In this document: positions 18,328-51,279 of the stretch, piece by piece
Position numbering within the stretch: position 1 is the stretch's first letter
How the letters are laid out: each line of letters opens with the position of its first letter
Assembly: GCA_032718475.1 (NCBI GenBank)
Contig: JAUCBJ010008837.1
Coordinates: 21,638 to 85,637, forward strand
Length of the DNA: 64,000 nucleotides
Source of the DNA: Nemertoderma westbladi
Lineage: Eukaryota > Animalia > Xenacoelomorpha
Reading direction: 5' to 3'
Notes under the pieces: model-generated
What the model was told of the DNA's origin: nothing
Databases searched by the model: none
Seen by the model: only the letters and a program-made list of their open reading frames with translations
Program-made: the position numbers and the translations under genes

Positions 18328-18329
18328 GT

Positions 18330-19619: not shown

Positions 19620-19629
19620 ACACACACAC
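19512..19629. repeat. (CA)n microsatellite inside the Maverick
   Basis: About 118 bp of nearly perfect CA repeat. Confidence 0.98.
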
Positions 19630-20889: not shown

Positions 20890-20992
20890 CTTCGAGTTGA
20901 CAGTTGAGGTAAGTTGTCGTTGTCGTCGTCGTCGTCGTAACTAGGTACCGGTACTAGAAAGAGTATCTTTAAATTGAATAGGTACCGTAAGC

Positions 20993-21256: not shown

Positions 21257-21641
21257 CGTCTTTGACTATGAATATCAGCACATACCCCTAATCTTTTCTC
21301 ACTGAGCTTAGCGTTGCCTGCTGTATACTCGCACACTCATAAGTAACAGATGCGCTATTGTGGCTCACTCGTGAGCAACAATGCCAAGTTAGCTAGCCGC
21401 GGCTGCTGAGTATACTATGCCTACTTGAGTGTTACAAGAAACAATCTCGCTACTGAAGTTAATTTCCCTCCTCAAACTAGTTGTTGATTTTAAAAAAATA
21501 TTCATAAATTTCTTCTCCCTTCAATTTAATATATATATTTTACAGTAAAAATCTCCACCACCAAACAGCAACAACAATAAATTTCATTCGTACTAATTAT
21601 ATTTTACATCAAAAACTCCCACACCAAACAATAATAAATTA

Positions 21642-22145
21642 TTAACCAGCTTGGATAATAGGATAATATATATGAAATTTAAACGGGGAACACATTAATG
21701 TACATTTACCAGTGTAGAAACAGCAAACAACAACAATATTATTTATTCTGACTTTACAGTTATTGAATATTTCAGGGTCGTATGAAATTTCTAGTTTAAC
21801 ATTATCAAATATAACATAAAACCCGATATTGTTTATAAGTAACCTATAAATTACAGTATCGATACTAAAAATATAAGTACACAAATTGATTGATTTAAAA
21901 ATCAAATTAATGTTTGTTTTTTCTAATATATGTTTTTTCACTTTATTAAAATTATATTTTCTACCGAGAATTGTTATTCATCCATTTGTAAACATTAATA
22001 TAGTTGCACCAAATACCTTATATATAAACTGATTAGGTTTGAGTACAATTTTACCATTCAATTGATTTTTTAATTCTTTCAAATTAAGTCCATAAATAAT
22101 CTGCTTACAACTTATATTTTTATTTACTATTTGATAATTCATCAT
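21642..22145 (-). pseudogene. TBP-like protein with one in-frame TGA
   Basis: Two listed ORFs share one frame: ...KPNQFIYKVFGATILMFTNG*ITILG...ISYDPEIFNNCKVRINNIVVVCCFYTGKCTLM. Stop at 21978-21980. Homologous to 44108-44614; start overlaps the pPolB end. Confidence 0.75.
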
Positions 22146-25100: not shown

Positions 25101-26177
25101 GCGTTTTTTGTCGTTATTCCAACATAATAAATTAATTATATATTTTGAATTTTGTTTTTCAAAAAGTTTAATAGCTAGCTTCCACTCTGTTGGATAATCT
25201 TTGTTCCCATTGTCAAAAATGAAATGACTCATATAATTTTTGTACGATGAAGTACGGTTTTTGTTTATCTTCACTTTGCTACTAAATTTTGCGGATATAA
25301 TTGCCCATTTAAAACAGTTATTATCAGCCGATTGTACATTTATAACACATTTTTTAACTGATAAAGCCTTAGGTAATTCCATATACCCATGCCCCTTATA
25401 TAGTAACGAGCTACACTTAGATTCAGCTAATTTAATTTCAACCCTTAATAAAGATTTAATACGCCACCCCGAACCACGTGTGTTAAAGATGGCTATTTTT
25501 TGTAATATATTTTCCCGCACATACTCAAACCATGTCTCAAAACTTTGCGGTGAATCTACAGTATTAATAGCACCACCGGAAGAATTAAAATAAAAGGTTT
25601 CCAATTGCTCACCTTGTGAAAAATGTGATCTGTACATTAATACATTTAGACCTAACCACAGTCTAAGAACATTCATTTCTTTCAATCTGTCTAATATTAA
25701 CTGAAGAATATTACCTCGAATTTGTGTTACTGCTGTTTCTACATCGGGATAATCTCTAGAAGTTGGGAGGTCGTGGACATAAATTTCAAGACGATTATCG
25801 TGAGCTTCTTGTTCCCTCGTAAAAATTGTTGCGCATGTGCCAAGAGCCACCCTTAAGTTTTTTCTGGATATTATGTTTTTATGTTGCGAAAATTTACGCT
25901 TTCTTGTGTAGTAACATTTCAAGTGACAGTCGTGTCGTAGATAATCGTCATATGTATACTCTTTATTACAGGTAGAACAAGTCAATTGATAGGTGCGGAA
26001 CTGCATTTCTTTACAACCAGTAGTCGTTTCATGTCGTTTACAAATTTCGCTGCATGAAGTCACGACATGACACTTTAAACAAGAATAACCTTCAAAATGT
26101 GACCGTAGGTGGCGTAAATAATTATGTCTAGTTACATTCATATGACAGAATGAACAACATATTGTTATTTTATCCAT
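22120..26177 (-). pseudogene. Protein-primed family B DNA polymerase (pPolB), one frameshift near 24175
   Basis: YFDIEC (ExoI), HNSNNYD (ExoII), KGVFPY, DFNSLY, KLLNNSLFGK, DTDS. Adding one A to the A6 run restores SKK-IELRFLDTYQF and about 1350 aa. Confidence 0.93.
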
Positions 26178-26361
26178 GTTGAAGTTTATTTAGATAAATA
26201 ATAATAATAATAAAATATCTCCAAAAAATTAAAATAAAATGAAATGAAATGAAATTGACTACATCTAAACATTTATATGCTAGCGAGGGAAATAATTTTA
26301 AACCAATCACCAATCGCTTATGACTATTGGAAACCGCAAAGAGTTTAACTTATGATTAGGT

Positions 26362-27429
26362 TTACATGTTAGAATAATAATCTGGTTTCCATGGAGAATT
26401 AGTAACAGGCTCTACTAGAACTGGGTTACTGACGACTTTCTGTTTCTTTGCAGGTGATGCGTTGGTAAATTTACTCGATGATCTTGGCTTCCGAGGTAAT
26501 ATTTCAGGAAAGACCTGTTGCGGTTGAGAGCAGCTCTCTTCAACATCCTGATTAGGTGATGGGATCTCTACGAAAGCTTTAGGTTTATCCAAAAGGACAA
26601 AGCCGTCAACGTGGGCTTCAGTAAGAGAAACGCCATCCAGCGATTCTTTGAGAAAACTAATATGGGCTTTATCATTCAAGTAATGCAACTCGATAGAATT
26701 TCCGCCGGCGCCTACTTCAGTAGAATTATCGGTGTTGGTGATAATAATTTTTTTATTATTGGTTTTAATCATTTTGAGACGGTCTGATAATTGAATGATA
26801 TTTTTATCAAAAAGATGCTTGTCTGTTTCAGCGACTTGGTTGTCCCACTCTCGCAACAAAACAGTTAGTTCCAGTTTTGACAAATTGAAACCCGTATAAT
26901 AGTTAAAACCAACACTATCAGTGTATCTGAGGCTGATTTTCCATAAGCCAACATAGTTGGTTCCTTTAAAAGCTGTTACAAATCCAATAAAGTCTGGATT
27001 TGATAATTCAATGTAGAATTGATCGCTAATAATCTCTAGCGGTGGAGAGAGAAATTGTAATAATTTCCCTCTGTATTGAATTAGAACTTCAGTAAAAGCT
27101 TTGTTGAGAACTTTACATTTGCCTTGTTTCTGAACATAAACATCACCCGATGTGGGGTTGATGGAAATATTCAAATTTCCCCGCGCAAAACGAGGAGTAG
27201 GATATATCCTACCTGGTATAATTGCTGGTCTGGATTGATGTTGGTTGTTGTTGTTGGTTGTTTCTAGAATGTCTAACAAATAGCGGGTATCTTGATGGGA
27301 AAAACAAATGGATTCGTTGTCCTCCTGAGATTCCACAATAAAATACTTGCTGTGAACGACGGTACAAGTATATTTATTGTAAGTAAATTTCCAGCTATTT
27401 GTTGCTCCGGTTTTTTGCGTTAAGGCCAT
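26362..27429 (-). CDS. Protein with PC4-like (ssDNA-binding / coactivator) domain
   Basis: FIGFVTAFKGTNYVGLWK...YTGFNLSKLELTVL resembles PC4 (YVSVRDFKGKVLIDIRE...KGISLNPEQW) and a segment of 37510-39201; C-terminal NLS-like PAKKQK. Confidence 0.6.
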   Translation of the reverse strand: MALTQKTGATNSWKFTYNKYTCTVVHSKYFIVESQEDNESICFSHQDTRYLLDILETTNNNNQHQSRPAIIPGRIYPTPRFARGNLNISINPTSGDVYVQKQGKCKVLNKAFTEVLIQYRGKLLQFLSPPLEIISDQFYIELSNPDFIGFVTAFKGTNYVGLWKISLRYTDSVGFNYYTGFNLSKLELTVLLREWDNQVAETDKHLFDKNIIQLSDRLKMIKTNNKKIIITNTDNSTEVGAGGNSIELHYLNDKAHISFLKESLDGVSLTEAHVDGFVLLDKPKAFVEIPSPNQDVEESCSQPQQVFPEILPRKPRSSSKFTNASPAKKQKVVSNPVLVEPVTNSPWKPDYYSNM

Positions 27430-27489
27430 AATAATAATAAATACGAAAAATATTACAAGTGATAAATTTTAAACCGTATCGCTGTAATA

Positions 27490-27780
27490 AATTGACACCA
27501 TAGTTCTCACTCTAAAATTGTGTTTGGTCGGAAAACGACGCCAGAGAAAAATGATGCTGAGTTCGACATTAGGTATCGACACAAAAACAAAGATTGGGCG
27601 AGACACGTAGCTCAGATTTTCGTTTTTGAGTCGATACCCAATGCTGGAATCAGTATCATTTTATGCGGTGTCGTTTTCCGACCAACGAATATACAACGCG
27701 TAAGATAATGTATGAATTATTAAGGAAAAAAAACACAATGTCAGAGTGAGAACAAAAAAATTAGATATGGTATCAATATA
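27490..27780. repeat. Imperfect palindrome / MITE-like foldback inside the Maverick
   Basis: TTGGTCGGAAAACGACGCC pairs with GGTGTCGTTTTCCGACCAA; inner arms pair too; outer GTTCTCACTCT pairs with AGAGTGAGAAC. Confidence 0.75.
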
Positions 27781-28115
27781 TTACCATGAAGAAGATTACA
27801 AGTGATGAATTTTATTAAAAACATTCACTTATATATATAAAAATTTGCGATGTGGCATAGTCAACGAAGAAGAGATGGTACGTGTCATAATCATCAACGA
27901 ATAAGAAAAGAGATGGGGAGCAACGTGGATGAATAGCTGGTTGGTTGATTGCGTGGATAGGAAATACGTGAAAGAATATGAATCATAGGGTTGTGTGTGT
28001 GCGTGTGTGTGTAATAATCAATAATTATTATAATAAAAAACGCACAGTATAATGTTAGTGGTGGAAGCCTTTCAATATGGCACAGATGCTGCGGGATCGG
28101 TTAGCTTGAGTAACT

Positions 28116-28630
28116 ACTATGGAAATATTCGTATACGTGTAGCTAGAACGTGGCGAAATTTCAACACGTATCATAATAGCGTTGGGGTAGGCAGGCCGCT
28201 TGGTTGGTTGGATTGATTGGTTTGGCGACAGCCGTCGAAGAGTAGCCGTGCGTGGCTAGCGACGGTGGTGGTGGTGGTGGTGAGTTGGCAATCGATTCGA
28301 TATAATAGCGTAGTGGGGGCTAGCCATGCGATGAGAAGTTAGGTTACGCGAAGATGAATATGCGATGGTTGGTTGATGCAACGACGCGAATCAATACTCA
28401 CGGGTGGTAACAGTTGTCGAGTAAGGTAGGCATCGCGAGGTTAGGCTACGCGTAGGTGATAAGCAACAATTGGTTGAAGGCAACGACGCGAATCAATATT
28501 GATGGTGACAGATGGTCATTAAACACCGCGATTTAGCACCGGAATTTGGCATTTTTTAATTGCCTCCGAGATGCGAGCCGTAGCCCAAGCTAGGGAGGAG
28601 ATATGGAGGAACTATGCTTCTCCTACTACT
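28116..28630 (-). repeat. Right TIR of the Maverick
   Basis: Reverse complement of 9911-10425, ends ACTACT followed by TSD CCTATT. Confidence 0.95.
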
Positions 28631-36264: not shown

Positions 36265-36700
36265 AGTAGTAGGGTCTTGGCCGGCTCTGCGACAGTTAGA
36301 CCTAACTGACACCCATTGGGTGTCATATGACACCCAATTATCACCCTATGGGTGTCATTGGGTGTCATTGGCGCCAGACTGTCTGGGTGACACCTCCCAA
36401 TTAGGCTAATTAGACCCTAATTGACAGGTGTCATCAATTAATTAGTACAATTAAACCCTAACAGGTGTCATATGACTCCTAATTAGGGTTTATTTGATTA
36501 TCCTAATTAATCAGACTGATTAGCGCCCTGACACACAATGGGTCATCAGTGATGTCTAACTGTCGCAGAGCCGGCTCAAGAGGGTGTCATAAGTGACACC
36601 GCAGCTCTTTTATTCATTAATACTTATTTATTTATATTTAATTTTAATTAATTGTATTCTATTTTACTTTATTTTATATTAATTATTCATTTGTACTTTA
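36265..36700 (+). repeat. Left TIR (~430 bp, imperfect) rich in TGACACC/GGTGTCA palindromes
   Basis: Reverse complement of about 50845-51279; further patchy similarity between 36990-37160 and 50730-50870. Confidence 0.88.
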
Positions 36701-37287
36701 TGGGTATACAGCTCCCTTACTGGTAACTAATTACTCTTATCTATATCCAGACAGCTTTATCGTTGACCTTTGACCTTTGACCCCCCAATTAGCTTTAACC
36801 AAGCAACAGCATATTAATGATAGTTGTATCCAAGCGCCCCTGCCCCCCCACCCCGTGACAGCTCTGATTACTAATTACTCTTACATATATCCAACCGCCT
36901 GCAGTTCCATAGTCTGCCGCTAGAGGGCGTATTATCTGAAAATTAACATCTTCTCTAACTTTGTTATTTTCAATTTAACTATTTATTTATATTTAATTTT
37001 AATTAATTAATTGTACTTTATTTTACTTTATTTATTCATTTGTAGTTTATTTTAAATTAATTAATTGTATTCTATTTTACTTTATATAATGATTTCTATT
37101 TTTAGATGAATTTGGTTTTAAATTGCCAATGAGATCACTATGACATAATGTCTATTTTTAGCTCTATGGTTTATAGATCCCTTATCGTTAACTTTATAAT
37201 CTTTCCTCTCGTGGCCCCTTTGTCTTCGTTATTCAATGGCGCCATTCTGTCTACCATTGAATAACATTGGGCAATCATTATCTCGCC

Positions 37288-37392
37288 TGATGTGACGTCA
37301 TCAAAGCTGCTCTCTGATTGGTTTAATTATACAGTCTTTTCTCCCTCCTGTTCCCTGATTGGCTAACCCATTCTAGCCCCCTCTATAATAGC
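37288..37392 (+). promoter_or_regulatory. Pol II-type promoter: CRE (TGACGTCA), two inverted CCAAT boxes (CTGATTGG), TATAAT
   Basis: Motifs upstream of the ATG at 37510. Confidence 0.55.
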
Positions 37393-37509
37393 CCCCGTTC
37401 ACCACATTCCCAATCATTGTCTCTTTGTTTTCCTGAAAAGTTTTAATTATTTTCGTAAAAGTATTTATTTATTTTTATTTCCTAAACGAGTTACCGGTAC
37501 ACAATCACG

Positions 37510-39201
37510 ATGGCACATTCAGAAATCAGCTATTCAAGCAACGATCTGGTTTGCAACGAAAATCAGTTTATGCTACAAGACAACTCGTTTGGTCTATATT
37601 TCGATTCGGCGAACAAACTCTTCCCGTTAACGATAAATACAACCTTAAACCAACCCATCCCGATTCCGGCAAACTACGCGCACTTTATTTTCCGCGCCTG
37701 CTACGAACTTCACGATGGACAATATCAAACCCTCGACGATAATAAACTTCATTCCTCCAACCACGGTTTCAAACTTTTAAAAAGGGACAACAAAATCACG
37801 TTCAATCTAACTACTTCGCCCGAGACGTTTACGATTCCAACTAGTATAGTCGATTTTATTCGAGAAAACATCAACCAAGATGTGGCAAATCGTCTACTGG
37901 GTTTAACCACCCTCGTAACCTCCTTCTTCTCCGATGATCGCTTATTTGATTTTCATAGTATCGCAAACTCGATTCTTCTTCTCATCTGGAACTCGTCGAC
38001 TCCGACCGAGGAAGAGGAGACTCGTTTCTTTAAACTTTTCGACAAGGATGTTCTCACTTTCGGCGAGAAATTGAATGAGCTCACATGCTTTTTCGCCAAT
38101 AAAGTCTCCTATTACTTTGGATTCAATTATAGAGTTGGCACCTATGGAAGTATTAACCCAGTGAATCCACTCGAGTTAATAAAGCTGGAAGACACTGTAA
38201 ACAGTTCATGGATCACATTTTCCGTCACCTGCGCCAATTTATTTCAACAATATGTAAACATCTGTCGCCCTTTTATTAATCCTACTACTCACCTTGTCCT
38301 AAAACCGGGAATTTGGGTTGCTTTTGACTATTGCACTTTTGGGTTTGTTACAAATATTCGGAACGAGCGCAATTTAGCGATCACCAATGGCTACGAGGTT
38401 GACGATGGAAAGGCTATTGTTTCTTCTAGGGGCATGATTCTTCTTACACCAACCGAGGTCGGCGAATTGAAATGGTTCGATTCAACCGTCGAGGATAGTG
38501 AATGTGTCTGCTACGATGAACTTAACGTATACAAAGACAACATTTCCGAGCGAATATCGATACAAAGTTGTATCAGCGATTCAGAAATTGATTTACAGAT
38601 AACCGAGAGAAAATTTAACGAATCCTTTACTATAGCTAACACGATTCAAGCGCGCGAGGCTCTAATCAGATTCAAGGCTATGGCTATACAATTTGCTTTC
38701 AAACCAAAGCAGATTACGATCCCCAATCACCAACGCTATCTCATAAATAGCAGTATCGCAGCCTTTATCTATAAGTTCAAATCCGAAAAATATGTTGGTA
38801 TCTGGCCCATTTTAATGAAAGACGAAGAGAATACCACTTTTCAGTTCACCAACGGTCTCAATATTAGGGGCAGCGATTTTCTCGCGATAAATATAACCAA
38901 CCCACCCAACTCTCACTACTATCTCAGTCCTTACATTCATATCGAGAACAAACCAGCAGAAATTATATTCACCAATACGAAAAATACCAACACTATCACC
39001 CTATCCAACGACTTTACCATCGCGCGCCTTTTCAAATTACTAAAACGTTCTCTCAGAGAAGGCATATTTCTCCCGCAGCAAACACACCTTAATCTATTTC
39101 ACCCCCCAAGAAAAGGTTATCTCAACAAACTATTAAAGAGAAAATTATCGCAACCATTAATAGTATCGGACCCTAAAAGGGTTAAACCAGTTATTCTCTG
39201 A
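37510..39201 (+). CDS. 563-aa protein with two or more PC4-like repeats
   Basis: FGFVTNIRNERNLAI...SRGMILLTPTEVGEL and AAFIYKFKSEKYVGIW...NGLNIRGSDFLAI; C-terminal NLS-like PKRVK. Confidence 0.65.
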   Translation: MAHSEISYSSNDLVCNENQFMLQDNSFGLYFDSANKLFPLTINTTLNQPIPIPANYAHFIFRACYELHDGQYQTLDDNKLHSSNHGFKLLKRDNKITFNLTTSPETFTIPTSIVDFIRENINQDVANRLLGLTTLVTSFFSDDRLFDFHSIANSILLLIWNSSTPTEEEETRFFKLFDKDVLTFGEKLNELTCFFANKVSYYFGFNYRVGTYGSINPVNPLELIKLEDTVNSSWITFSVTCANLFQQYVNICRPFINPTTHLVLKPGIWVAFDYCTFGFVTNIRNERNLAITNGYEVDDGKAIVSSRGMILLTPTEVGELKWFDSTVEDSECVCYDELNVYKDNISERISIQSCISDSEIDLQITERKFNESFTIANTIQAREALIRFKAMAIQFAFKPKQITIPNHQRYLINSSIAAFIYKFKSEKYVGIWPILMKDEENTTFQFTNGLNIRGSDFLAINITNPPNSHYYLSPYIHIENKPAEIIFTNTKNTNTITLSNDFTIARLFKLLKRSLREGIFLPQQTHLNLFHPPRKGYLNKLLKRKLSQPLIVSDPKRVKPVIL

Positions 39202-40359
39202 GACCAGCAACCCTATTAATATAAACAGTCTCTATTTAATAAAAACTGTTCTCACTATATCTTTTGTTATTGTCGATGTTCTTATATTATTTATTTTCAA
39301 TGTTGTTGGTAAATTATTTATCTGTTGTTATATTATTTAATATTGATGTTGTCGGTAAATTATTTATTCTTGTTTCCCCATATTGTTTAAAAAATATAAG
39401 ATGCTTAACCGGCTATTTTTCATTTTTCTCTACTAGTTAATCTATTCTATGAGAGCGAGCCATGAAGTAAGTGAGTCTCAGCATACCATTAATGACCCCT
39501 ACTGCTTCTTCGTAATCAATTTGAATGTTAACCCCTAAATAAACAGCCAATCCCTATGAATTCTTTACAAACTCGATATGCAAGTTGTTTATCAGAGCTG
39601 ATTTTAATTAAAATATATTATTTAGCGATTTTCGTGATTAATGCTATAAATTATATTCACCAAAATGAAAATATCCACCCTATTACTCTATCCATCAAGC
39701 GATGCTTTGTATGTATTGATGGCGAGCAAAGTTTTCAGGGCGACCACCTCTAGGCTGTAAGTACGCTGTTCTGTCCTATCATAGACACTCTGTCTTTTAG
39801 ATGCTTCACTGTTAATATTAAGCCGTTAGCCATGGCGCCGCTGATAAGCCGCGAGGATATTCAAAGGCTTTGGTTTGATTGTTCGTACTATGGATAGTTC
39901 AATGAAATCATGAAAGGGAGGGCCGCATGGGGTTGAAAGTGATAGCCCCTCATCCTTATTTTCCCGAGAAATTCTTAAAGGCGACTATGAATAGAACAAT
40001 GAAACATTAAAGGGAGGACCGCATATGATGGGAATGATAGCCTTTCAACTGCCTTTGCCCAGATTTGTGTAAGTTCGAGGGAGGATGTAGAGGAAAATAT
40101 ACTCGTAGCTTTAATGCCCCATTTGATTAAAGTAGAGCAAATTTAGCTTTCACCTAAGGGTTATCACTCCTTGCAACTGCAAAATTTAAAATTCTATCTA
40201 TGATGTATTCACTATATTTCGTTTGCTGACATTATTTCATCGCGAAATTAAAAGCATCTGCTATCACTATTATTATAGTATATTATCTAAACTAGTGACA
40301 CCGAGTTGGAACAGATAGGATAATTGCACTTTGTTATGTTTTAGTTTAGTAGCTTTAAT

Positions 40360-41012
40360 CATAATACTACCAGGCTATAAAATGTTGTATAAATATCGGG
40401 GGGAGGGTCATAATGACCCCGGTCGAGGTGGGGAATCGAATCTATGACAATCTGTATATCCTATTTTGTGTTTACTTTTTATATTTTCCACGAAGCGAGG
40501 GCAAAAATTTAAATTTCCTGAAAATTTCTGAGTCTCAGCACACCATTAATGATCCCTATGCCTTTTTCGTAGTCAATTTGAATGATAATCCCTAAATCCC
40601 TATATTTTTCATAAAAACCCTCAAAACTTTACAAATTTTGAAAAATCGGCTAATATAAAATGCCCCATAGTTTCAATAAAAATGGTACTCGAAATGTGAA
40701 TACAATGCTTCCACTTCATCAAGGTGAAACCTTAACGAAAACTATCCTGATCCACACTCGATTTGTAAATACATTGCATCCACTTTTACCCAGATGGAGC
40801 ATTTGTATTGTATTTAAGATTTATTTTCATGAGTCACATAATAACCCCAATACTACCGGCCTATAAAATATTGTATAAATATTGGGGGGAGGGTCATAAT
40901 GACTCTGGTCGAGATAGGGAATCAAATCTATGACAATCTGTATATCCTATTTTGTGTTTACTTTTTATTTTTTCCGTGAAGCGACCAAAATTTAAAATTC
41001 CTGAAAATTTCG
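40360..41012. repeat. Two ~165-bp direct repeats (about 40360-40530 and 40848-41012), each with a minus-strand tRNA T-arm-like unit
   Basis: Shared GGGGGAGGGTCATAATGAC...GAATC.AATCTATGACAATCTGTATATCCTATTTTGTGTTTAC. Confidence 0.75.
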
Positions 41013-41495
41013 CGGATAGAGAATATAAATATAATTGGTGAGCATAGTGCTACGCGAAGGCTCCATGGCAGATGTATTTTAGCTATGGACTCGTATATCC
41101 ATTCTACTCTACTATAGCCAGACTGTCTTCGAGGTGCCCCGTTAGCCTTGGCGCCGCTAAATCTGCATGAGGGTCGGCCGGCAAGCGAGATATCTCTATT
41201 GCTAATAAGCTTGAGGGCCCAAATAAGGCTAACATTCATATGCTATATCCCATAGTTATTACCGATATATAATTACTACTGGCTCCTAACGACTTATCAC
41301 TGGGAGCCCTTTAATTAAAGCCGCCGCTCGTTGAAACTGTTGCGTTGCTCCCTCTGCGCTGATGCTATATAAACCGAGACGGGGCCTTCATTCGTCACCA
41401 GTTTTGAGTTCGAAAAATTTTATGTGATTTATTCTACATTTTAAACTTTTGCGTTTACAATTTTAAACTTGTTAATTTACCAATTAATCAATACC

Positions 41496-41921
41496 ATGGA
41501 TTCCACCTCCAACACCCAGCTAGCTGCCCCCGTGGCATCGGTCTCCATCACCACCACAGCTACATCCATCACCACTGCTTCCAACGCTATCAACACAACC
41601 ATGACCAGAAGCGTTGGTACACAGACCATGGAGAGCAGGTCGGAAGCGGCCACTCCCTATGGCCGTTTTATGAGGGATCAGGAAGAGGAGATGGCCTGGG
41701 AGGAGGATTTGGTTAATCGAGAGCTCGAGATTCGAGCATTGGAGGAAGCGCGTGTGGAAGGGCTTCGGACCTCCTCCAACTGGTACGACCAGTATTTGTA
41801 CCAGGAATATGTTCTGAAAGAGAAAGCAGCGGCTGAGGAACAGCGTTTCCTTCACCCTTTTCCCCAGGAAAACTGGGAGGAAACAGAGGATTTTAGGGAG
41901 GAACCATGGTGTAAGTTTTAA
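41496..41921 (+). CDS. Hypothetical protein: Ser/Thr-rich N-terminus, acidic/aromatic C-terminus
   Basis: TATATAAA at about 41367, Kozak-like ACCATGG, GC-richer than its flanks. Confidence 0.6.
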   Translation: MDSTSNTQLAAPVASVSITTTATSITTASNAINTTMTRSVGTQTMESRSEAATPYGRFMRDQEEEMAWEEDLVNRELEIRALEEARVEGLRTSSNWYDQYLYQEYVLKEKAAAEEQRFLHPFPQENWEETEDFREEPWCKF

Positions 41922-42119
41922 TTAATACTAACATTCCTTTATATAATATGATATAATAAAATAGGTTAAAGCAATATGCAGTTTGAATAGAAATTAATTT
42001 GAGTAATTACAATAATTTTAACGTTATAAGAATGACCAAGATGGCTATAAAGCAATTACTTAAATAATAAATTATTATTTAATTATAAAATAAATTATTT
42101 ATTTTCTCATAGGCTAAAT

Positions 42120-42614
42120 TTGCGTGAGGACCGGCCGGCGAGCGAGATTGGGAGCGCAGTTGTCCCTTACAGTTACTCCTTACAGTATTTGCCTATGTCG
42201 AACCATCTGAAATTCCTCGGACACAAACTGGGAAATTCTAACCCCGCTAGCAACCTCCACAATGTTATCCAGACAATAGCCATGATGTCGCAAGTTTTCC
42301 ATACCAAAGGATGGACAGCAAGGTGGCTCAACCTAGAGACCATCTTTAAGATGTGGAACACACTCACCGTCCCTGTCATAATCTACAGATTAACTCTGAC
42401 TATTGGATCCCTACGCCGAAAGGATATCGACAAACTCGACGCCTACCACCGCAAGGTGCAACGTAGCCTCTTACTTCCTGGGAACTATCTGGAGAATAAT
42501 ACACTCTATCTACTCTCAGGGACCCCACCATTATCGATCATTGCCTATCGGAGTTGCTATAGAACCTTAGTTAGAACACTTGATTGCCCTAGTCTCGAGC
42601 TACAGTTACCTTAA
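42120..42614 (+). pseudogene. Divergent fragment resembling the C-terminal (thumb) region of a LINE reverse transcriptase
   Basis: LKFLG...PVIIY...KLDAYHRKVQRSLL...NNTLY...TPPLS parallels FQYLG...SVFLYG...RIDGCYTRLLR...NAELY..IPPVS in the RTE element at 54480-59310. Confidence 0.55.
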
Positions 42615-43267
42615 TTATAAATGTATTTACCCCCACATTATTTATTACTATTAGGTCTATCTATTCAAGAAATTATATGTTTTTATAATATACTTTGGAA
42701 AATTAGTCGACTAAGTCATAATTTTTAAAACTTTAAATACGGGTTGAGTTATTTTATAAAGTTAAGAAGAATGAACCAATAGAGGGAGCCTGAAGTCTAA
42801 TCTCTTGGTCTTTACTCACATTAACTCCCAAGGTTGCATACTATCACTATAGCCGGGGGAGTCAAAGCTAGAGTGTATGCTAGAGTTAACCAAGAGCTAG
42901 GAAAAAGAATAATGCTCTTCTAGGGTCCAAACTCACATCCCTCCAATTAGAGAACTAAGCAAATGATCAGCTTGAAGGTCTTAGACCCTTAATCGGAGGC
43001 ATCGAGCAGCCAATGAGAGAGCAGATGCGAGTACAGTGGTAAAGCCCATCCATAGTGAGATAGCGTTGCACTAGCTCTCAAGGATAGTTATACTCATCAT
43101 TCAAATATCCCTCGCAAACCAGATTCCCCCAACATCTAAAGTAATCCACTTCATTGTAAAATATATAATGCAATATAACTCGAATATTTCTGTTTTTATA
43201 ATATAAATAATAATTGTTACATAAATTTATAATTTAACATGTAAATATAAGGTGAAAATTCACTTTA

Positions 43268-44070
43268 ACATAGAGTAACTAAACTAAACACAAAATAGGA
43301 AAAACAGAAGGTCACGGGCTCAATCCCTACTCATATCCAGTTTTATGGAAAATAAACAGGAGGTCATAGGTTCAATCCCTACTCGCGACCATTATAAATC
43401 CAACACAAAATAAGTTAAACCAGGGTTCGAATCCTAATCATGAAAATATAAAAAGTAAACATAGAATAACTAGAGTAACTAAACTAAACATAAATTAGGA
43501 AAAACAGAAGGTCACGGGTTCAATCCCTACTCGCGACCATTATAAATCCAACACAAAATAAGTTAACCAGGGTTCGAATCCTAATCATGAAAATATAAAA
43601 AGTAAACATAGAATAACTAGAGTACCTAAACTAAACACAAAATAGGAAAAACAGAAGGTCATGGGCTCAATCCCTACTCGTATCCCGTTTTATGGAAAAT
43701 AAACAGGAGGTCATAGGTTCAATCCCTACTCGCGACCATTATAAATCCAACACAAAATAAGATAAACCAGGGTTCGAATCCTAATCATGAAAATATAAAA
43801 AGTAAACATAGAATAATTAGAGTACCTAAACTAAACACAAAATAGGAAAAATATATGCTCGCAGGTTCGATCCCTAGTCGTATCCCGTTTTATGGAAAAT
43901 AAACAGAAGGTCACGGGTTCAAGCCCTACTCGCGACCATTATAAAACCAATACAAAATAAGTTAAACCAGGGTTCGAGTCCTACTAATGCAATTATAAAA
44001 AGTAGGTAACACGGATGGTCACGGATTCAAACCCTACTCACGGAAAAATAAAAACCAACACAAAATAAAT
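43268..44070 (+). repeat. Tandem array of about 12 tRNA T-arm/B-box-like motifs
   Basis: Units such as GAAGGTCACGGGTTCAATCCCTACTCGCGACCA and CCAGGGTTCGAATCCT at roughly 50-90 bp spacing; higher-order period about 150-200 bp. Confidence 0.85.
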
Positions 44071-44107
44071 AATATAGTAAACTTTCATGTATACCATAGT
44101 AAATAAA

Positions 44108-44614
44108 CTAATTTAATAATAAAGTTTGTAAAATAGATAATGATTCGGGGAATTCACCGGCTGGACACATGGAAACGATTTTATTACTATGAAATACACT
44201 GAAATATGCACGTCCTTTATATATTCTAATCGCGCAAAATAATTCGGGGGTATAGCTAATAAATATTGCTTTATTATTAATTGTATGATGTCCACATTTT
44301 TTCATTAATAATTTAAAATTAACACTTGGAAAAATAATAGTTCGTGTTTCGGTATTAAGTTTCAAATTTTGTAATTGCATCCCGATAGTTTGTTTTAAAT
44401 AAAGCAATTCACTAGCTAAATTATTGCACAGGCCTACAATTGTTACTGCGCCGCTGGGAAATAGCATTATAGTTGAATCGTCACCTTTGTAGATAAACAT
44501 GTTTGGTTTTAAGCTACTTTGACCTGTAATTTGCTGTGAAATTTTATCTAGTTCAAATTTGGCAATGTTTTTTCCGGTAAACTGTTTATTGGTTATTTCT
44601 ATTTTGTTGTTCAA
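44108..44614 (-). CDS. TBP-like protein (uninterrupted frame, no ATG at the 5' end)
   Basis: Two-repeat layout: IEITN..FT....FEL..I...KPNMFIY...STIMLFPSGAVTIVG and LNT.T..I...VNFK.L...SYTPELFCAIRI...YFSVFHSNKIVSM, versus TBP TTALIFSSGKMVCTG and SYEPELFPGLIYR...LLIFVSGKVVLTG. Confidence 0.8.
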   Translation of the reverse strand: MNNKIEITNKQFTGKNIAKFELDKISQQITGQSSLKPNMFIYKGDDSTIMLFPSGAVTIVGLCNNLASELLYLKQTIGMQLQNLKLNTETRTIIFPSVNFKLLMKKCGHHTINNKAIFISYTPELFCAIRIYKGRAYFSVFHSNKIVSMCPAGEFPESLSILQTLLLN

Positions 44615-44637
44615 TTTCTTATTCTAGAAAAATAAAA

Positions 44638-47600
44638 TTAAATCCTAGTAGGGGGGATTACTACTCGTTTCGCCGGTCTAACAAGCTTAGTGCTATAGTG
44701 TCCGTATGGTTTGCTGCTATATTTACTACTCCAATATGATTTCGTATCCCAGAGCGTTAGTGCCTTCTTATAGACATGACCAGTAAAAATTTGATGCTTT
44801 CTAGAAGTGAAGGTAGAGTTATAGCGGAAGAGCATTGCCTCGTTTTCAAAACAGTCTGCATAATCCTCGTGTGTTAGTTGCTTAGCGACAACCGATCTAG
44901 ATACACCTTTGGCGGTTTTCTTGATTGGGGCATCGTAGGATTGAAAACTGTAGACCTTTGGTTTAAGGAAAACCCACTGTTTATACTGCAAACCGCAGCT
45001 CTCATCTTTTACGAAGCCGAGAGCCGCTTTGTGTTTAATGGTATAGAGTGGATGTGTTGTACTGTAGTTGGAAGTATCTAGGAAACCACCCTCAAACATT
45101 GCCCGTAGAAAGGTTAGCTGTGGTGTATTAGTTACGCTTAGCATTAGAGAATCCGTGTCACCGGCTAGACAGCGAATCTGGCAATCCAGTTTTTGTTCTA
45201 GAGGCTTCAGTTTGTTGTAAAATAGGTCGTACATCTGTAGCTTAGATAGATCTAGTATAGTGCAACCGATGAACACGCCCTGATTTAGGCAAACAGCCTC
45301 TTTAGTGAAAGTATGACCACTCAAGTTGGGGGTAAATACAACAAACGATTCGTGATTGGGCTTGGCTAAGAGCAAATCGCATTGTTCGTCGCTATTGCAT
45401 AACCTGAAAGAAACGCGGTCTCTAACCTTTTGGAGGCATTTCCCATACAAGGCATTGTTCATCAACTTATAAAATAGGACCTCGAATGGGTTATTTGCCG
45501 ACTGTCTTTTATTTGTATTAAAACTAATGTAGTCCTTGAAAATATATTTTTGCGAGAAAGAGTAGACCCTATGTACTTGTGTAAGTTTAAGACCGAGCTT
45601 CAAATAGAGTTGAAGTAGCTTAATATGGATACCGTATTCAACCTTATTAAACTGATGTAGTAGTAGCTTAGTACAGGTATCGTTGTATGGTCTACAGGTA
45701 GCCTTATCGGTGAGATTGTAATGCTCCCAAAGATCTTCCATGTATTCGCTAAGAAAGGATTTAGGGACTGACATCTTCTCCGCTCCTAGAGGCAGATCGG
45801 CGGTCAAATCATGAATTTCTTTCGGATAATGTAGATCAACTATGCAATAATAACCAGTATCCCCACTCGCGTCTACTGTAGCTAGGTCTATGGGGGTAGT
45901 TACGAGTTTAATATTAGCGTAGGGAAGTTTCTGGCTCAGGGCGCAGCCGTAAAGGTTATTCGCATCGATGGGAATTAGATATTTCTCGGGGAGACTGGAG
46001 TTGTAGTCGGGTTTATCGGGAATATTTGCGTCTACGGAATGCGTATTCAAGAAAACTAGACCACCCCTAATATTTGTTTCAAAGTCTGAGTAGATGGAAG
46101 CGTCTGATAGTAATTGAATTTCTGATTGCGTGAATTTCAGCGCCGCGTCGTAAGTTAATCCAGGGGCAGTGAAGTACATTACGGGCTCGAGTCCATAATT
46201 AGTAAGACAGAGGGATCGGAACTGCTCGAAAGTATCAGCCAATAGGGTAACGTCTAGAACCAAATAGCCAATCATATAGTCGAAGATTGTTGTGCAGTTT
46301 AATTCATCCCAAGTAGTAAGCGCGCGCTGATAGTTGTCTGCGCTACATTGTTCCAATTTGAGATCATTATAGAAGCTTTCTATTGGGGGGAGTGTAGTTT
46401 CGTATAGGTTTGAAATATTTTGAATGTAGGAATATGGGAATACGCCCTTGTTTTTTATTATGTTATCGCTAATGATAGGATAGAGTCGGGTCATTTGAGC
46501 TAGTGTATGGGGTATGGCTGTTGCTAGGTTACTGTTATTTTTAGTGAGATAGCTACTAAGATTATCTAGGCTGGCAGTCATAAACTGATAGGAATCTAGA
46601 AAATTAATGGAGATACTTTCTTTAGCGTTGGCTGTTGGTGTACTCGGATCGATTGGGAAGCTAACTTTAAGGTGAATATAAGTTTCGGTGTTTTTTGGTA
46701 TTACGGTCATTTTCCAGTGTGTTCTAGAACTATCGGTCATTCCTTCTTTTAGTAGTAAATGCATATCGAATTTCCTCAGGTTATGAAATATAATATAAAA
46801 ATTATTCCGTTTTAGGGAAAGTTTCCTGTTGCAGCTGACGCAAGCAGCCCCCCGATACTCCCCGCTATAATGATCGTGATCGCGGACTTTGGTGCTGAGA
46901 TTGTCATTGAGGTTTAAATTATGAGAATCGGGGGTTAAATTACAGTTGCAGACGTAGCATTGTGTAGCGTTATTAAAGTCAGTTTGTTGGCTAGTAGTGA
47001 GTTGCATGGGGGCGTGCGTGTTTGTACTAAAAATGGACCAATCGTATAACTCCCTACAATGACTTTCCATAGCGGTTAGAAAGTCGCGCATTACGTGGTT
47101 ACTGCCATCGTCGCGGAAAATTTGAACATCTGTTTTAGGAGGGTTAATTAATTTCTGATTTGCTACTGTATAAAAGGCTGCCGCGCTAGCTATATGTTTC
47201 TGTGGGAGTTTAATATTGTTTGTAGGTTCTAGAATAGTTTCAATGTCGGCGTATATACAGAAAGGCGGGGATAGAGTCTTATCATACCTATCAAATTTAA
47301 CCAAGAGATTTTCGGGCATATACTCGAGTTGGCGTTTACCCGTATAGCAACGCTCTCGATGTTCTTCCAATGATTTGTCAGTGTAAAAGCCTCTGAGACA
47401 GCGTTCGCAGTGCGTCTTCTTACCGTTAGAATCTTTTGAATTTATTAATCTATCTATGTTAGTAATAGCTACGTAGTGGGCGGGGTTTTTGCTTGTGGCT
47501 TCGATAAATAATAAGTTTAGTACAGTTTTACCGGAACAGTGCGCGCTATCTGGTTGACTTAGAATGGAGAGTTCTTCCGTATTACTCCAATAAAGAAGGT

Positions 47601-48690
47601 TTATACAGTATATAGGGTTGGCTTTCAGAAACTGGGGAATACCAGTTACTCTGTCCACCGGAAAACTTAAATTCGAAAAATCAAACATGTTTAGGAAAGG
47701 AGTAAACGTTGAAATTCTACTAATATTATTTTTTTTTCTATCAATTTTCTTATAATTTGCGGCGGCCAATACTGCGTATTTAAAGCATTCCCCCAGCGGG
47801 CAGTCTACGCTTACGGTACATTTTTTATTTAATAATAATTTAGAATTATTGAACCCTTGACCCTTTAAATAGGGGTTGCGTTGGGACCGCGCAATCTCAA
47901 TAGTTATTCGCTCGATGGCTATTATGCGCCAACCCGAGCCGAGGCAGAGAAACACGCTTAACAGTTGATCGATACGATTGACGGCGCCAGAAAACCAGTT
48001 ATTAAAGTCGCTATTATTCAGAATTTGATTATTGTTACCGCTAGATTTAAAACAGAATGATTCAATTTGAAATCCCTCGCTGGTTTCACGCTCCATTACG
48101 ATGTTGATTGTAAGCCAGACTCTTAAAAAAGTTCCCATGGCACTACGTAAATGGCTACTAACGTGTTCTTGAATGTGTGGAAAATTTTCATTTAATGTTA
48201 ATTCTGCGTCGAGTCTTGTTTCTGCGAGGTCGTTGTTATAGGTAAACAGTCGTCCGTGTGCGCTTCCGTTAGAGGGTGGTTGAAATGGATTGTTTGGGGA
48301 AATAGAATCTCGCGAAGTTGAAGGTTCATTATTGGAGCCGCCGCCGCCGACTTGTTCTGGAGTAGAGTTGATGGGGGATGAGTGGGAGGTAGTCGGAGTT
48401 TTGCGTTTCCGCGAAAAAAGTCGAGTATAGCATTCATGCTCAGTAAAGGATGACAGGGTGAGCGAATCCCCGCAGCGGCAATCGGCTGGCTCGTTTACGT
48501 AACTAAATCCTGTTCCCCCCTGAGGACACGAAACAAGATGGCCAACCAGTGTCTTCTTTTCCGAAGACCAAGTCGGGCAACAGTCGCATCGATATTGCGC
48601 GAAATGAATTTTAATGTGGCGAGATAAATGATCACTCCGTGTCTCTTTGTCGCAGATGGGACAGCTAACTTTATTGCTAGACATAGGCAT
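44638..48690 (-). CDS. Protein-primed family B DNA polymerase (intact, 1350 aa)
   Basis: N-terminal Zn fingers, YADIET, endonuclease VII-like DHDHYSG..RGAAC..CN, FHNLRKFD, KGVFPY, DANNLYG, KLMNNALYGK, GDTDS. Confidence 0.96.
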   Translation of the reverse strand: MPMSSNKVSCPICDKETRSDHLSRHIKIHFAQYRCDCCPTWSSEKKTLVGHLVSCPQGGTGFSYVNEPADCRCGDSLTLSSFTEHECYTRLFSRKRKTPTTSHSSPINSTPEQVGGGGSNNEPSTSRDSISPNNPFQPPSNGSAHGRLFTYNNDLAETRLDAELTLNENFPHIQEHVSSHLRSAMGTFLRVWLTINIVMERETSEGFQIESFCFKSSGNNNQILNNSDFNNWFSGAVNRIDQLLSVFLCLGSGWRIIAIERITIEIARSQRNPYLKGQGFNNSKLLLNKKCTVSVDCPLGECFKYAVLAAANYKKIDRKKNNISRISTFTPFLNMFDFSNLSFPVDRVTGIPQFLKANPIYCINLLYWSNTEELSILSQPDSAHCSGKTVLNLLFIEATSKNPAHYVAITNIDRLINSKDSNGKKTHCERCLRGFYTDKSLEEHRERCYTGKRQLEYMPENLLVKFDRYDKTLSPPFCIYADIETILEPTNNIKLPQKHIASAAAFYTVANQKLINPPKTDVQIFRDDGSNHVMRDFLTAMESHCRELYDWSIFSTNTHAPMQLTTSQQTDFNNATQCYVCNCNLTPDSHNLNLNDNLSTKVRDHDHYSGEYRGAACVSCNRKLSLKRNNFYIIFHNLRKFDMHLLLKEGMTDSSRTHWKMTVIPKNTETYIHLKVSFPIDPSTPTANAKESISINFLDSYQFMTASLDNLSSYLTKNNSNLATAIPHTLAQMTRLYPIISDNIIKNKGVFPYSYIQNISNLYETTLPPIESFYNDLKLEQCSADNYQRALTTWDELNCTTIFDYMIGYLVLDVTLLADTFEQFRSLCLTNYGLEPVMYFTAPGLTYDAALKFTQSEIQLLSDASIYSDFETNIRGGLVFLNTHSVDANIPDKPDYNSSLPEKYLIPIDANNLYGCALSQKLPYANIKLVTTPIDLATVDASGDTGYYCIVDLHYPKEIHDLTADLPLGAEKMSVPKSFLSEYMEDLWEHYNLTDKATCRPYNDTCTKLLLHQFNKVEYGIHIKLLQLYLKLGLKLTQVHRVYSFSQKYIFKDYISFNTNKRQSANNPFEVLFYKLMNNALYGKCLQKVRDRVSFRLCNSDEQCDLLLAKPNHESFVVFTPNLSGHTFTKEAVCLNQGVFIGCTILDLSKLQMYDLFYNKLKPLEQKLDCQIRCLAGDTDSLMLSVTNTPQLTFLRAMFEGGFLDTSNYSTTHPLYTIKHKAALGFVKDESCGLQYKQWVFLKPKVYSFQSYDAPIKKTAKGVSRSVVAKQLTHEDYADCFENEAMLFRYNSTFTSRKHQIFTGHVYKKALTLWDTKSYWSSKYSSKPYGHYSTKLVRPAKRVVIPPTRI

Positions 48691-49200
48691 CTTGAATCTA
48701 GAAAAATAAGTTGATTATTCATAAAAAAAAAAATAAAAAATACTGTATACTTGCTAAAAATAAAGTAAAACAGTAGGTATTAATCGGTTACTAGGCAACA
48801 ATACTGTGTTTGTACAGTTAGGCCTATTGCTGTATTGTAACAATCAGTCGGTGAAACATAAAGCAGGCAGTCGGCAGTATCTAGTGTGGAAGTGTTAGTG
48901 TACCAGCGGTTAGATAGTGGCGATAGCCAAGACACAATAGCGATGGCAGTTATTATTCGTGGAAAGAGGGTCTATAAACAGCAGTCAGTCAGTGCAGTAG
49001 TGCTAGTGATATAGTCTGCTATAAGTGATAAGTCAGATGTACCGATAGCGTTAACCAATACAAATCAACGATAGGCCTAGCTAATCGCTGTGTGAGAACT
49101 CAGTTAGTCAGTAGGATATATAGTGAAAACTGCAGTAATCATTGTTGTTCAGTAGGATCTAGGCTAACTCGAATGATGCGGTACCGATAGTCAGGTAGAC

Positions 49201-49997
49201 AAGCAGATAGACAGATGTAGGCCTATTGATCGAATGCTTCGATCACGGTTTAGGCTATCGGTATCACCGCAGTCTGACAGTAATTAATAATGAGCCTACT
49301 GCAATACTGTTGTACCGGTAGACATTAAAGGTAAATTGTTTGCTAGCGGCGTCGATAGTACCGTCAGATGGTGGAAGGCAGATTTTACTTACGGTGTTAG
49401 TAAATATTCACGGAAAGAGGAAGTTCGTGAAGAAGTTGGTTGACATGGCCGACGAGAGAATTTATCAACCGATGGAACGGAATGGTATCGGAAATTAGAA
49501 ATATTACGCGGCGGATACGCGGAAAGTTTGTTGTCGACGATGAGTGATAGCGCGGCGAAATGATACTAGAAAAATAAGTTGATTATTTGTAAAAAGATAA
49601 AAAATAATGTAAGCAGATAGGCGGATGTAGGCCTAATGATCGAATGCTTCGATCACGGTTTAGGCTATCGGTACCACCGCAGTCTGACAGTAATTAATAA
49701 TGAGCTTACTGCAATACTGTTGTACCGGTAGACATTAAATGTAAATTGTTTGCTAGCGGCATCGATAGTACCGTCAGATGGTGGAAGGCAGATTTTACTT
49801 ACGGTGTTAGTAAATATTCACGGAAAGAAGAAGTTTGGAAGTTCGATGGCGATGAGGAAGTTGGTTGACGTGGACGACGAGAGAATTTATCAACCGATAG
49901 AACGGAATGGTATCGGAAATTAGAAATATTGAAATATTACGCGTCGGATACGCGGAAAGTTTGTTGTCGACGATGAGCGATAACGCGGCGAAATGAC
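49201..49997. repeat. Tandem duplication of ~410 bp upstream of pPolB
   Basis: 49201-49562 is repeated at 49611-49997. Confidence 0.88.
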
Positions 49998-50844
49998 AAT
50001 AATACAACTATACAACTGGATAGTTGACTGACGATAACAAATAAATATTCTTAAATAAATAATATTAAATTCGAAAACAAAATAATGGTAAATGATGTTA
50101 ATCGTAACTTGCAATTGAAATAATGACCTAATATATTGGTGGGGACGTATTAAATAGCAATTCGGTTAGTAAGGGAGGCCCTTGTCTCTTAAATGAGCCA
50201 ATCAGAACGCAGCAGTAGAAATGAAGCCCGCTGATTGGCTGTTCGCGCAAAAGCGGTTACCAGGGCAACTTCTCGTGTTGATGTATCTATTAGAAAACTC
50301 TTGTAAGCATCTTGACTAATTATGTTGAGTTGGCTGTATAACAGAAGCAGGTCTGGTGCAAAGGAAAGGGATTAGTAGAGAGGAATGCGTGATTAGTGGC
50401 GCTTCATTGTTATGATACGGGCTGCCTGGATATAGGAAAGGACCCGAGTGATGCCGGTTATAGTGGGAACAATGGAGGGCCGCTTGAGCATTAGCCTTGG
50501 GCGATATACGGATTTGCTGTAGTCAAGGCCGCGATGGGATTATTAGTGAGTCAACGAAGGGGCTGCTAATAGACGGGACCGCTCATTTATATTTGCCTTG
50601 GGGGTATACGTGTAGATTCACGGCCTGTCGTATCTAGTTAATGAATAATGAGGACAGAGGAGGGGCCCCCCACCGATGAACGCAGTTGATAGTTGCCAGT
50701 AGGGAGCCGTATACCATAGCCATTATAAAGTTAAAAATAGACATTATGTCATAGTGATCTCGTTGGTAATATAAAAACTAATTAATCTAAAAATAGAAAT
50801 CAATGTATAAAGTAAAAGCAATATATACAATTAATTAATTTAAA

Positions 50845-51279
50845 ATAAAGTACAAATGAATAAATAAAGTAAAATAAAATAGAATACAAATAATTAATTA
50901 AAATTAAATATAAATAAATAAGTATTAATGAATAAAAGAGCTGCGGTGTCACTTATGACACCCTCTTGCTCCTCTCTGCGACAGTTAGACAACACTGATG
51001 ACCCATTGTGTGTCGGGGCGCTAATCAGTCTGATTAATTAGGATAATCAATTAAACCCTAATTAGGAGTCATATGACACCTGTTAGGGTTTAATTGTACT
51101 AATTAATTGATGACACCTGTCAATTAGGGTCTAATTAGCCTAATTGGGAGGTGTCAGCCAGACAGTCTGGCGCCAATGACACCCAATGACACCCATAGGG
51201 TGATAATTGGGTGTCATATGACACCCAATGGGTGTCAGTGGGGTCTAACTGTCGCAGAGAGGACCAAGACCCTACTACT
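50845..51279 (-). repeat. Right TIR of the capsid-less pPolB element
   Basis: Ends ACTACT followed by TSD TTCGTA. Confidence 0.88.

What the first reader, a model, noticed from the sequence alone, without database searches (positions are those of the whole stretch)
44108..44614. TBP-like gene directly downstream of pPolB, syntenic in two divergent Polinton-type elements
Seen: a 168-aa ORF with the two-repeat TBP layout (STIMLFPSGAVTIVG; SYTPELFCAI...SVFHSNKIV) and a homologue in the same position in the full Maverick (21642-22145: ATILMFTNG, SYDPEIF, FYTGKC). Established: TBP homologues occur in large nucleocytoviruses but are not part of the canonical Maverick gene set. Inference: these elements encode their own basal transcription factor or a TBP mimic, kept even in the element that lost all structural genes.
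Basis: partly seen in the sequence, partly recalled or inferred. Interest (0 to 1): 0.9.

Follow-up and report, generated by a model that had tools for sequence, protein, structure and literature searches.

The report
Maverick mini-TBP kept in capsid-less element
A virus-like jumping gene (Maverick) with no detectable capsid or integrase genes still carries a trimmed, altered version of the cell's TATA-binding protein, a gene found in many other Mavericks, where it likely switches on the capsid genes through a promoter signal of their own.

Summary
The gene is real and TBP-fold, on the minus strand: Pfam TBP above cut-off; model pLDDT 95 matching TBP at Z 15, rmsd 2.4 Å. Element B (36265-51279, inverted repeats, 6-bp target duplication) keeps an intact polymerase, this gene and a homologue of one Maverick gene, but no detectable ATPase, integrase, capsid or protease. 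Corrections: B's frame has no 5' ATG and sits behind a splice-acceptor-like site; the homologue in full Maverick A is broken by a stop; adjacency to pPolB is local (0 of 8 relatives). The family is widespread in Mavericks (43 of 70 loci carry hallmark genes), under purifying selection (median dN/dS 0.22), keeps three of four intercalating Phe, and in relatives a YATAAAC box precedes virion/packaging genes but 0 of 51 TBP-like genes. That box is not enriched in A or B. Best reading: a viral promoter factor using host TFIIB/Pol II (inferred); why B keeps it is open. A 'TBP' label in MELD viruses is in print (PMC8502044), and this scan reported Maverick TBPs before in other genomes.

The parts
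44108..44623 (-). TBP-like gene of element B (171 aa stop to stop; TTG at 44614; first ATG at 44500)
44624..44635 (-). Splice-acceptor-like 12-mer directly ahead of the TBP-like frame (its AG is part of the upstream stop; frame open from the next base); same 12-mer at 48698-48709 and 49566-49577
   Evidence: 3 matches, 0.05 expected. Use as a splice site is inferred
44638..48690 (-). Intact protein-primed PolB of element B, 1350 aa, Exo I-III and Pol A-C motifs present
36265..51279 (.). Element B: 15-kb Maverick-type element, AGTAGTAG ends, inverted repeats 95% alike over 441 nt, 6-bp target duplication; no ATPase, integrase, capsid or protease detected
37510..39201 (+). 563-aa ORF of element B, homologous to the 355-aa ORF of element A; function not identified
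   Evidence: E 5e-9; no usable hit
41496..41921 (+). 141-aa ORF of element B behind a TATA-like site at 41364; unidentified
49201..49996 (-). Duplicated non-coding segment with donor-like GTAAGT sites (49802, 49392) and an acceptor-like site (49566): candidate spliced leader for pPolB and the TBP-like gene
   Evidence: inferred
9911..28630 (.). Element A: complete-layout Maverick, 515-nt inverted repeats 99.6% alike, 6-bp target duplication; ATPase, integrase, protease, putative capsid genes on +, replication arm on -
   Evidence: capsid labels inferred from size, position and similarity to relatives
21642..22145 (-). TBP-like gene of element A, broken by an in-frame stop at codon 56
22120..26177 (-). 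pPolB of element A, split into two frames near 24170
26362..27429 (-). 355-aa ORF of element A, homologue of B's 563-aa ORF
1..5567 (-). Second copy of the B family (about 91% alike), running off the window edge before its TBP-like gene would begin

Best explanation
The gene encodes a compact TBP-fold protein of a Maverick-specific family that likely acts as the element's own promoter-recognition factor: likely made early from the polymerase arm, it would bind a TATA-variant box in the minor groove and hand over to the host's TFIIB and RNA polymerase II, switching on virion and packaging genes in complete Mavericks. Shown: fold, family membership, residue pattern, selection in relatives, and a box in front of virion genes but not in front of the TBP-like or polymerase genes in relatives. 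Inferred: DNA binding, the box as its target, TFIIB recruitment, early/late timing. Elements A and B inherited a pPolB-TBP block from a common ancestor; B is a separate, long-diverged, helper-dependent replicon that kept the early arm and would use the factor on its own promoters or on a helper's.
For: Fold: Pfam above cut-off; 19 of 19 profile hits are TBP family; model pLDDT 95, Foldseek E 1.8e-8, Z 15.1, rmsd 2.4 over 159 residues, next unrelated fold Z 9.0. Residues (yeast numbers and roles recalled, mapped through): F116, F190, F207, N69, basic 98 and 105/107, G119, G125, E188 kept in A and B; F99 is Pro in A, B and 36 of 36 subfamily members; hydrophobic saddle positions turn polar (V71, V122, V161, L205), as described for KSHV ORF24 (PMC12529657, passages). 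Context: 43 of 70 loci (16 of 23 over 3 kb) carry Maverick hallmark genes; 4 of 15 Mavericks fetched by ATPase alone carry a TBP-like gene. Selection: median dN/dS 0.22, maximum 0.55, 65 non-independent pairs of 57 genes; A versus B identity by codon position 0.46/0.60/0.43. Box: YATAAAC 25-110 nt before starts in 54 of 125 sites, 6.5 expected, in 29 held-out loci; before ATPase 20/31, small core gene 24/24, integrase 11/12, MCP 3/4, minor capsid 3/4, protease 2/2, but TBP-like 0/51, pPolB 0/3, KilA-N 0/4; 0 of 42 genes in 11 ATPase loci with no TBP-like gene in view. No TFIIB family hit among 134 ORFs scanned, whereas both stirrup glutamates are kept in 34 and 36 of 36 subfamily members.
Against: The box is not enriched in this window's elements: 1 of 9 sites in A and 0 of 8 in B lie before a gene, and no other 6- or 7-mer passes correction in A; A's arms begin at ordinary TATATATAA sites. 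B has no virion genes to switch on. In A and B the first stirrup glutamate is Asp and Thr, and B alone has Asn at a nearly invariant Gly (G210). B's frame has no 5' ATG. Two other TBP-bearing Mavericks (L077, L080, F99-keeping type) lack the box (0/4, 0/12 genes). The box also resembles a forkhead site (recalled) and often overlaps the upstream stop codon, and the loci that carry it are kin, so box and gene may be co-inherited. Some classes mix (ZnF 3/16, second minor-capsid-like gene 1/4).
Confidence: 0.55

Rival explanations
1. In element B the gene is a passenger or decaying relic: the family works as a late-promoter factor in complete Mavericks, but B lost its targets and keeps the gene only because it is next to the polymerase.
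For: No 5' ATG in B; B-specific change at G210 and loss of the first stirrup glutamate; no box-bearing target in B; long end branch; the B-family 563-aa ORF is already broken in the second copy.
Against: B's frame has no internal stop over 171 codons although B and A are deeply diverged (pPolB 32-42% identical); it has its own copy of the acceptor-like 12-mer used ahead of pPolB; several odd residues are shared with A, so they predate the loss of the virion arm.
Confidence: 0.2
2. The protein is a TBP decoy that binds host TFIIB or occupies host promoters to dampen host transcription or silencing, useful to any replicating element with or without a capsid.
For: Kept in a capsid-less element; E188 and the YxPExF loop are the most conserved part of the family; the basic helix-2 positions that host regulators use are not kept (PMC7221094 passages describe the same loss in viral TBPs).
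Against: DNA-contact residues are conserved as strongly as the stirrup, and a box tracks virion genes in relatives; a pure decoy predicts neither.
Confidence: 0.13
3. The protein is a DNA-bending replication factor for the protein-primed origin in the inverted repeats, playing the part host NFI/Oct-1 play for adenovirus (recalled).
For: B keeps exactly the replication arm: pPolB, the 563-aa ORF and this gene; in A and B it shares the pPolB transcription unit; a rolling-circle initiator is the next fold match (Z 9.0).
Against: In most relatives the gene lies beside the ATPase or protease, not pPolB; the TFIIB-type stirrup would be dispensable; DNA contigs show a derivative that keeps the gene and loses most of pPolB.
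Confidence: 0.12

Closest known systems
Cellular TBP family (Pfam PF00352; yeast 7z0o_H/7o4i_O, human 5fur_A, archaeal 1mp9_B)
   Same: Two-lobed saddle over the whole length (Z 14-15); three of four intercalating Phe, N69, YxPExF loop.
   Different: 16-20% identity; core only, about 12 residues shorter; F99 replaced by Pro; polar saddle; N159 lost; helix-2 basic patch absent; mobile-element gene.
[quoted passage not shown] 2021, PMC8502044 Fig. 5 legend; section 3.4 read whole, figure not visible)
   Same: A TBP-like gene in a Polinton-type element.
   Different: Only a legend label: no family, residue, promoter or selection analysis in the text read; I could not see which genome bears it or whether it is this family.
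Beta/gamma-herpesvirus vTBP (KSHV ORF24; PMC12529657, passages)
   Same: Viral TBP mimic with a polar saddle, tied to a non-canonical late box (TATTWAA there).
   Different: ORF24 is a large multidomain protein, keeps four Phe, lacks the TFIIB glutamates and works in a six-protein viral complex; the Maverick protein is a bare core that keeps the stirrup and has no detected viral partner.
Nucleocytovirus TBPs (BFVD matches; PMC7221094, passages and section 7)
   Same: Virus-encoded two-lobed TBP; fold matches down to E 1e-8.
   Different: 10-17% identity; these usually pair with a viral TFIIB and viral polymerase, while no TFIIB-family gene was found in the Mavericks scanned.
Mavericks/Polintons (eight core genes in PMC8097293, passages)
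   Same: AG-repeat ends, inverted repeats, 6-bp duplication, pPolB; A has integrase, ATPase, protease and putative capsids.
   Different: TBP-like gene is not among the core genes; B lacks integrase and the whole morphogenesis module yet has an intact pPolB and signs of splicing.

Membership tests
TBP superfamily | Profile match to PF00352 above the curated cut-off | tested here: met
   23.8 vs 22.9 bits for B; A's 3' part 15.7 bits, below cut-off, 5' part none
TBP superfamily | Two-lobed saddle fold | tested here: met
   single-sequence model was poor (pLDDT 38), so the model rests on the 72-row alignment
Canonical TBP | Four intercalating phenylalanines | tested here: not met
   three kept, F99 position is Pro (numbering recalled)
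Canonical TBP | Paired Asn (N69, N159) and hydrophobic saddle | tested here: not met
   N69 kept; N159 is Thr; V71, V122, V161, L205 polar in B
Canonical TBP | Two stirrup glutamates for TFIIB/Brf1 | tested here: inconclusive
   second kept in A, B and 36/36; first is Thr in B, Asp in A, Glu in 34/36 subfamily members
Canonical TBP | Binds TATA DNA and nucleates a pre-initiation complex | not testable with these tools
   needs biochemistry
Host TBP paralogues (TRF2/TBPL1, TRF3) | Phylogenetic placement within the animal paralogue clades | not tested
   no eukaryotic TBP or TRF2 sequence was in the trees
Nucleocytovirus TBP-TFIIB systems | Co-encoded viral TFIIB | tested here: inconclusive
   no TFIIB Pfam hit in 29 window and 105 locus ORFs; many ORFs unannotated and loci incomplete
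Derived (F99-to-Pro) Maverick TBP-like family | Pro at F99 and placement outside the F99-keeping group | tested here: met
   split supported 98/93 and 95 or 97 with A or B left out; exact sister unresolved
Derived (F99-to-Pro) Maverick TBP-like family | YATAAAC box before virion genes | tested here: not met
   not enriched in A or B, though strong in relatives
Maverick/Polinton (element A) | TIRs, 6-bp TSD, pPolB, integrase, ATPase, protease, capsids | tested here: met
   pPolB split in this copy; capsid labels inferred
Maverick/Polinton (element B) | TIRs, 6-bp TSD, pPolB | tested here: met
Maverick/Polinton (element B) | Integrase and morphogenesis genes (autonomy) | tested here: not met
   no tblastn hit at E 0.01 with A's or five relatives' proteins; a very divergent gene in the unidentified ORFs is not excluded

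The most novel reading that the evidence does not exclude
Mavericks run a one-protein late switch, a reprogrammed mini-TBP working with host TFIIB and Pol II, and B-type elements are satellites that carry the polymerase and the switch but none of the switched genes: they control the virion programme of complete Mavericks in trans, in exchange for integrase and capsids, making a two-component Maverick system in an animal genome.
Probability: 0.12. Interest if true: 0.85.

Novelty: new variant of a known kind. Interest (0 to 1): 0.58.

Why it matters
How Mavericks, which encode no RNA polymerase, time their capsid genes is unknown, and their particles have been hard to observe. A mini-TBP with a matching box gives a direct, testable switch, and would be the smallest viral late-transcription system next to the multi-protein herpesvirus and nucleocytovirus ones. 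The family is also a natural series of TBPs with altered DNA-reading surfaces. This window adds a lineage without the box and a capsid-less replicon that still carries the gene, which is the natural test of whether the protein does more than activate late genes.

Tried and rejected
Single-sequence homologue search: 38 candidates, none at E 0.01; phmmer against PDB sequences: none; single-sequence model unusable. Viral-contig scans with the window pair, two TBP-like subfamilies and two ATPase queries confirmed nothing. No whole genome is held, so copy number, an autonomous partner for B and intact copies of A could not be examined. No RNA holder listed; the one guessed RNA run gave only scattered low-depth contigs, so splicing and expression are untested. 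Variation among B-family copies of the gene was not obtained; of the 40 differences shown (313 more not shown) one lies in the frame. Contig depth there is no copy number. A PC4-like single-strand-binding role for the 563/355-aa ORFs, guessed by eye, got no support. A per-gene promoter motif in A: none after correction. Independent origin of the pPolB-TBP order in A and B rejected: their pPolBs are closer to each other than to the loci in the C-terminal part (42% vs 35-37%) and the proteins pair in the tree (94/84, long-branch warning). A-B complementation from the pattern of broken genes (three breaks in A outside the virion arm, none in it) is too few events to weigh. No complex prediction was sent: only an archaeal TFB stand-in was available. 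Literature: searches found no study of a Maverick TBP; term look-ups found no TBP/TATA mention in PMC11161782, PMC11131425, PMC8097293, 10.1101/2023.08.22.554363 or 10.64898/2026.10.13.758929 (main texts only; their supplements and all figures unseen; subscription papers and Repbase not covered).

Full report
Observation. The frame lies on the minus strand, open from 44623 to the stop at 44108 (171 aa). It matches Pfam TBP at 23.8 bits against a cut-off of 22.9. The homologue at 22145-21642 is 31% identical (parts E 2e-9 and 4e-7) but carries an in-frame stop at codon 56.

Anatomy. Element A (9911-28630) has 515-nt inverted repeats 99.6% alike and a 6-bp duplication, with ATPase, integrase, protease and putative capsid genes on one arm and a 355-aa ORF, a split pPolB and the broken TBP-like gene on the other. 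Element B (36265-51279) is also complete at both ends, with a 6-bp duplication. It holds a 563-aa ORF homologous to A's 355-aa ORF (E 5e-9), a 141-aa ORF, an intact 1350-aa pPolB with all six catalytic motifs and the TBP-like gene. tblastn with the proteins of A and of five related loci finds no ATPase, integrase, capsid or protease in B at E 0.01. B is not a deletion of A: their pPolBs are 32-42% identical. A second B-family copy runs off the left edge of the window. The 12-mer TTATTTTTCTAG occurs three times in 64 kb (0.05 expected), each time in B: before the TBP-like frame, before pPolB and before a duplicated leader segment with GTAAGT sites. I infer that the gene is expressed by alternative splicing from the pPolB unit; the start codon could come from a donor-like site seven codons into pPolB (48669), from another exon, or from the TTG. 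None of this could be checked with RNA. DNA contigs of three runs from three studies cover the gene, and two show a derivative joint that drops most of pPolB and keeps it.

Fold. A profile of the two window proteins found 19 proteins at E 0.001 among 1.84 billion, all above the Pfam TBP cut-off. With a 72-row alignment AlphaFold2 gave pLDDT 95.2, pTM 0.84 (38.1 without alignment). Foldseek ranks cellular TBPs first (E 1.8e-8, TM 0.76-0.78); VIA-align gives Z 15.1, rmsd 2.4 over 159 residues, against 9.0 for the best non-TBP. Viral TBPs of large DNA viruses match at 10-17% identity.

Residues. Mapped on yeast numbering (recalled; register), A and B keep F116, F190, F207, N69, the basic residues at 98 and 105/107, and E188; F99 is Pro in A, B and 36 of 36 members of the largest subfamily; V71, V122, N159, V161 and L205 are polar or changed. 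The first stirrup glutamate is Thr in B and Asp in A but Glu in 34 of 36 subfamily members; B alone has Asn at G210. PMC12529657 (passages) gives the two yeast glutamates as E184 and E188, which differs from my recalled E186; PMC7221094 (passages, section 7) names two conserved glutamates in the C-lobe loop. The lobe that has changed most is the one that reads the 3' half of the TATA box (recalled).

Family and context. A subfamily alignment retrieved 70 metagenome loci; 43 carry Maverick hallmark genes, 16 of 23 among those over 3 kb, and three of the other seven carry the PLA2-like gene seen beside the TBP-like gene in confirmed Mavericks. L001, L015 and L034 are near-complete Mavericks with the gene just upstream of the ATPase. 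In 8 loci with both genes it is never directly behind pPolB. Sampling by ATPase alone, 4 of 15 loci have a TBP-like gene, 2 of the 4 over 10 kb; two of the four are a less derived type that keeps F99. Trees separate F99-keeping from derived proteins (98/93; 95 and 97 with A or B left out) and put A and B on the derived side on long branches; no host TBP or TRF2 was included, so the donor is not determined. dN/dS among relatives has median 0.22 and maximum 0.55 over 65 non-independent pairs.

Promoter box. Earlier notes of this scan suggested a shared TATA-like motif. I picked YATAAAC by eye from three loci and tested it on 29 others: 54 of 125 sites lie 25-110 nt before a start, 6.5 expected. 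By gene class it precedes ATPase 20/31, a small core gene 24/24, integrase 11/12, MCP 3/4, minor capsid 3/4, protease 2/2, PLA2 13/15 and an exonuclease-like gene 15/18, but TBP-like 0/51, pPolB 0/3 and KilA-N 0/4. It is present in L072 (6/11 genes) and L076 (2/5), absent from the two F99-keeping elements (0/4, 0/12) and from 42 genes of 11 mostly short loci with no TBP-like gene in view. These loci are kin and may be those that earlier agents used, so this is a repeat rather than independent support. Against my reading, the box is not enriched in A (1 of 9 sites) or B (0 of 8), and no other word passes correction in A. A and B also differ from the box-bearing subfamily at V122 (Thr, not Arg) and L205 (Ser/Cys, not Asn), which fits a different target but is one lineage only.

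Mechanism. Most likely (0.55) an early-made promoter factor that reads a TATA variant and recruits host TFIIB and Pol II; no TFIIB-family gene was found in 134 ORFs, unlike most nucleocytoviruses with TBP (PMC7221094, passages). For B the rivals are a passenger (0.2), a decoy of host transcription (0.13) and an origin-bending replication factor (0.12).

Prior art and novelty. Starrett et al. label a 'TBP' gene in MELD viruses with adintovirus-like PolB (PMC8502044: passages, section 3.4 whole, one supplement searched with no hit; preprint 10.1101/697771: passages); the figure was not visible. TATA-binding proteins are also mentioned in Cymbomonas elements without pPolB or jelly-roll capsids (PMC10675990, passage). 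PMC12220804 and PMC13037468 gave only reference-list hits; PMC11131425 mentions VLTF3, not TBP. My searches found no study of the family, its residues or the box. This scan holds 30 earlier findings with these words in at least 4 genomes; look-ups by place, by this sequence and for a capsid-less carrier returned none. Verdict: real, a new variant of viral TBP-like factors, with the capsid-less carrier and the box-less lineage as this window's own contribution; interest 0.58.

Noticed in passing
L077:2446-2997 (-) and L080:10649-11200 (-): Mavericks with a second, less derived TBP-like type that keeps the F99 phenylalanine and lacks the YATAAAC box; suggests graded divergence or more than one capture.
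   Followed up: partly
window 37510-39201 (+) and 26362-27429 (-): Homologous unidentified ORFs at the start of the replication module of both elements; no database relatives found.
   Followed up: partly
window 43238-44068: Tandem repeats of about 200 nt directly downstream of the TBP-like gene in B, also present in the second B copy.
   Followed up: no
window 44630-47857: DNA contigs of two runs show a joint that removes most of pPolB but keeps the TBP-like gene and its acceptor-like site.
   Followed up: partly
window 18814-19413 (+); L015:6594-7058; L034:2078-3037: Small exonuclease-like ORFs (label from motif by eye, no Pfam hit) recur in these Mavericks, often behind the box.
   Followed up: no
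L071-L085: Maverick-like contigs lie in prokaryotic genome bins, probably mis-binned eukaryotic DNA; a trap for claims of bacterial TBP-like genes.
   Followed up: no
window 42051-42614 (+): Fragment resembling the C-terminal end of a LINE reverse transcriptase (by eye) inside element B.
   Followed up: no
window 5523-8633, 31395-36190, 52791-59123, 60321-64000: BEL/Pao-type gag fragment, a Gypsy element, two LINEs, a 1-kb palindromic element and a 58-nt satellite surround the Mavericks: a transposon-dense animal region.
   Followed up: no
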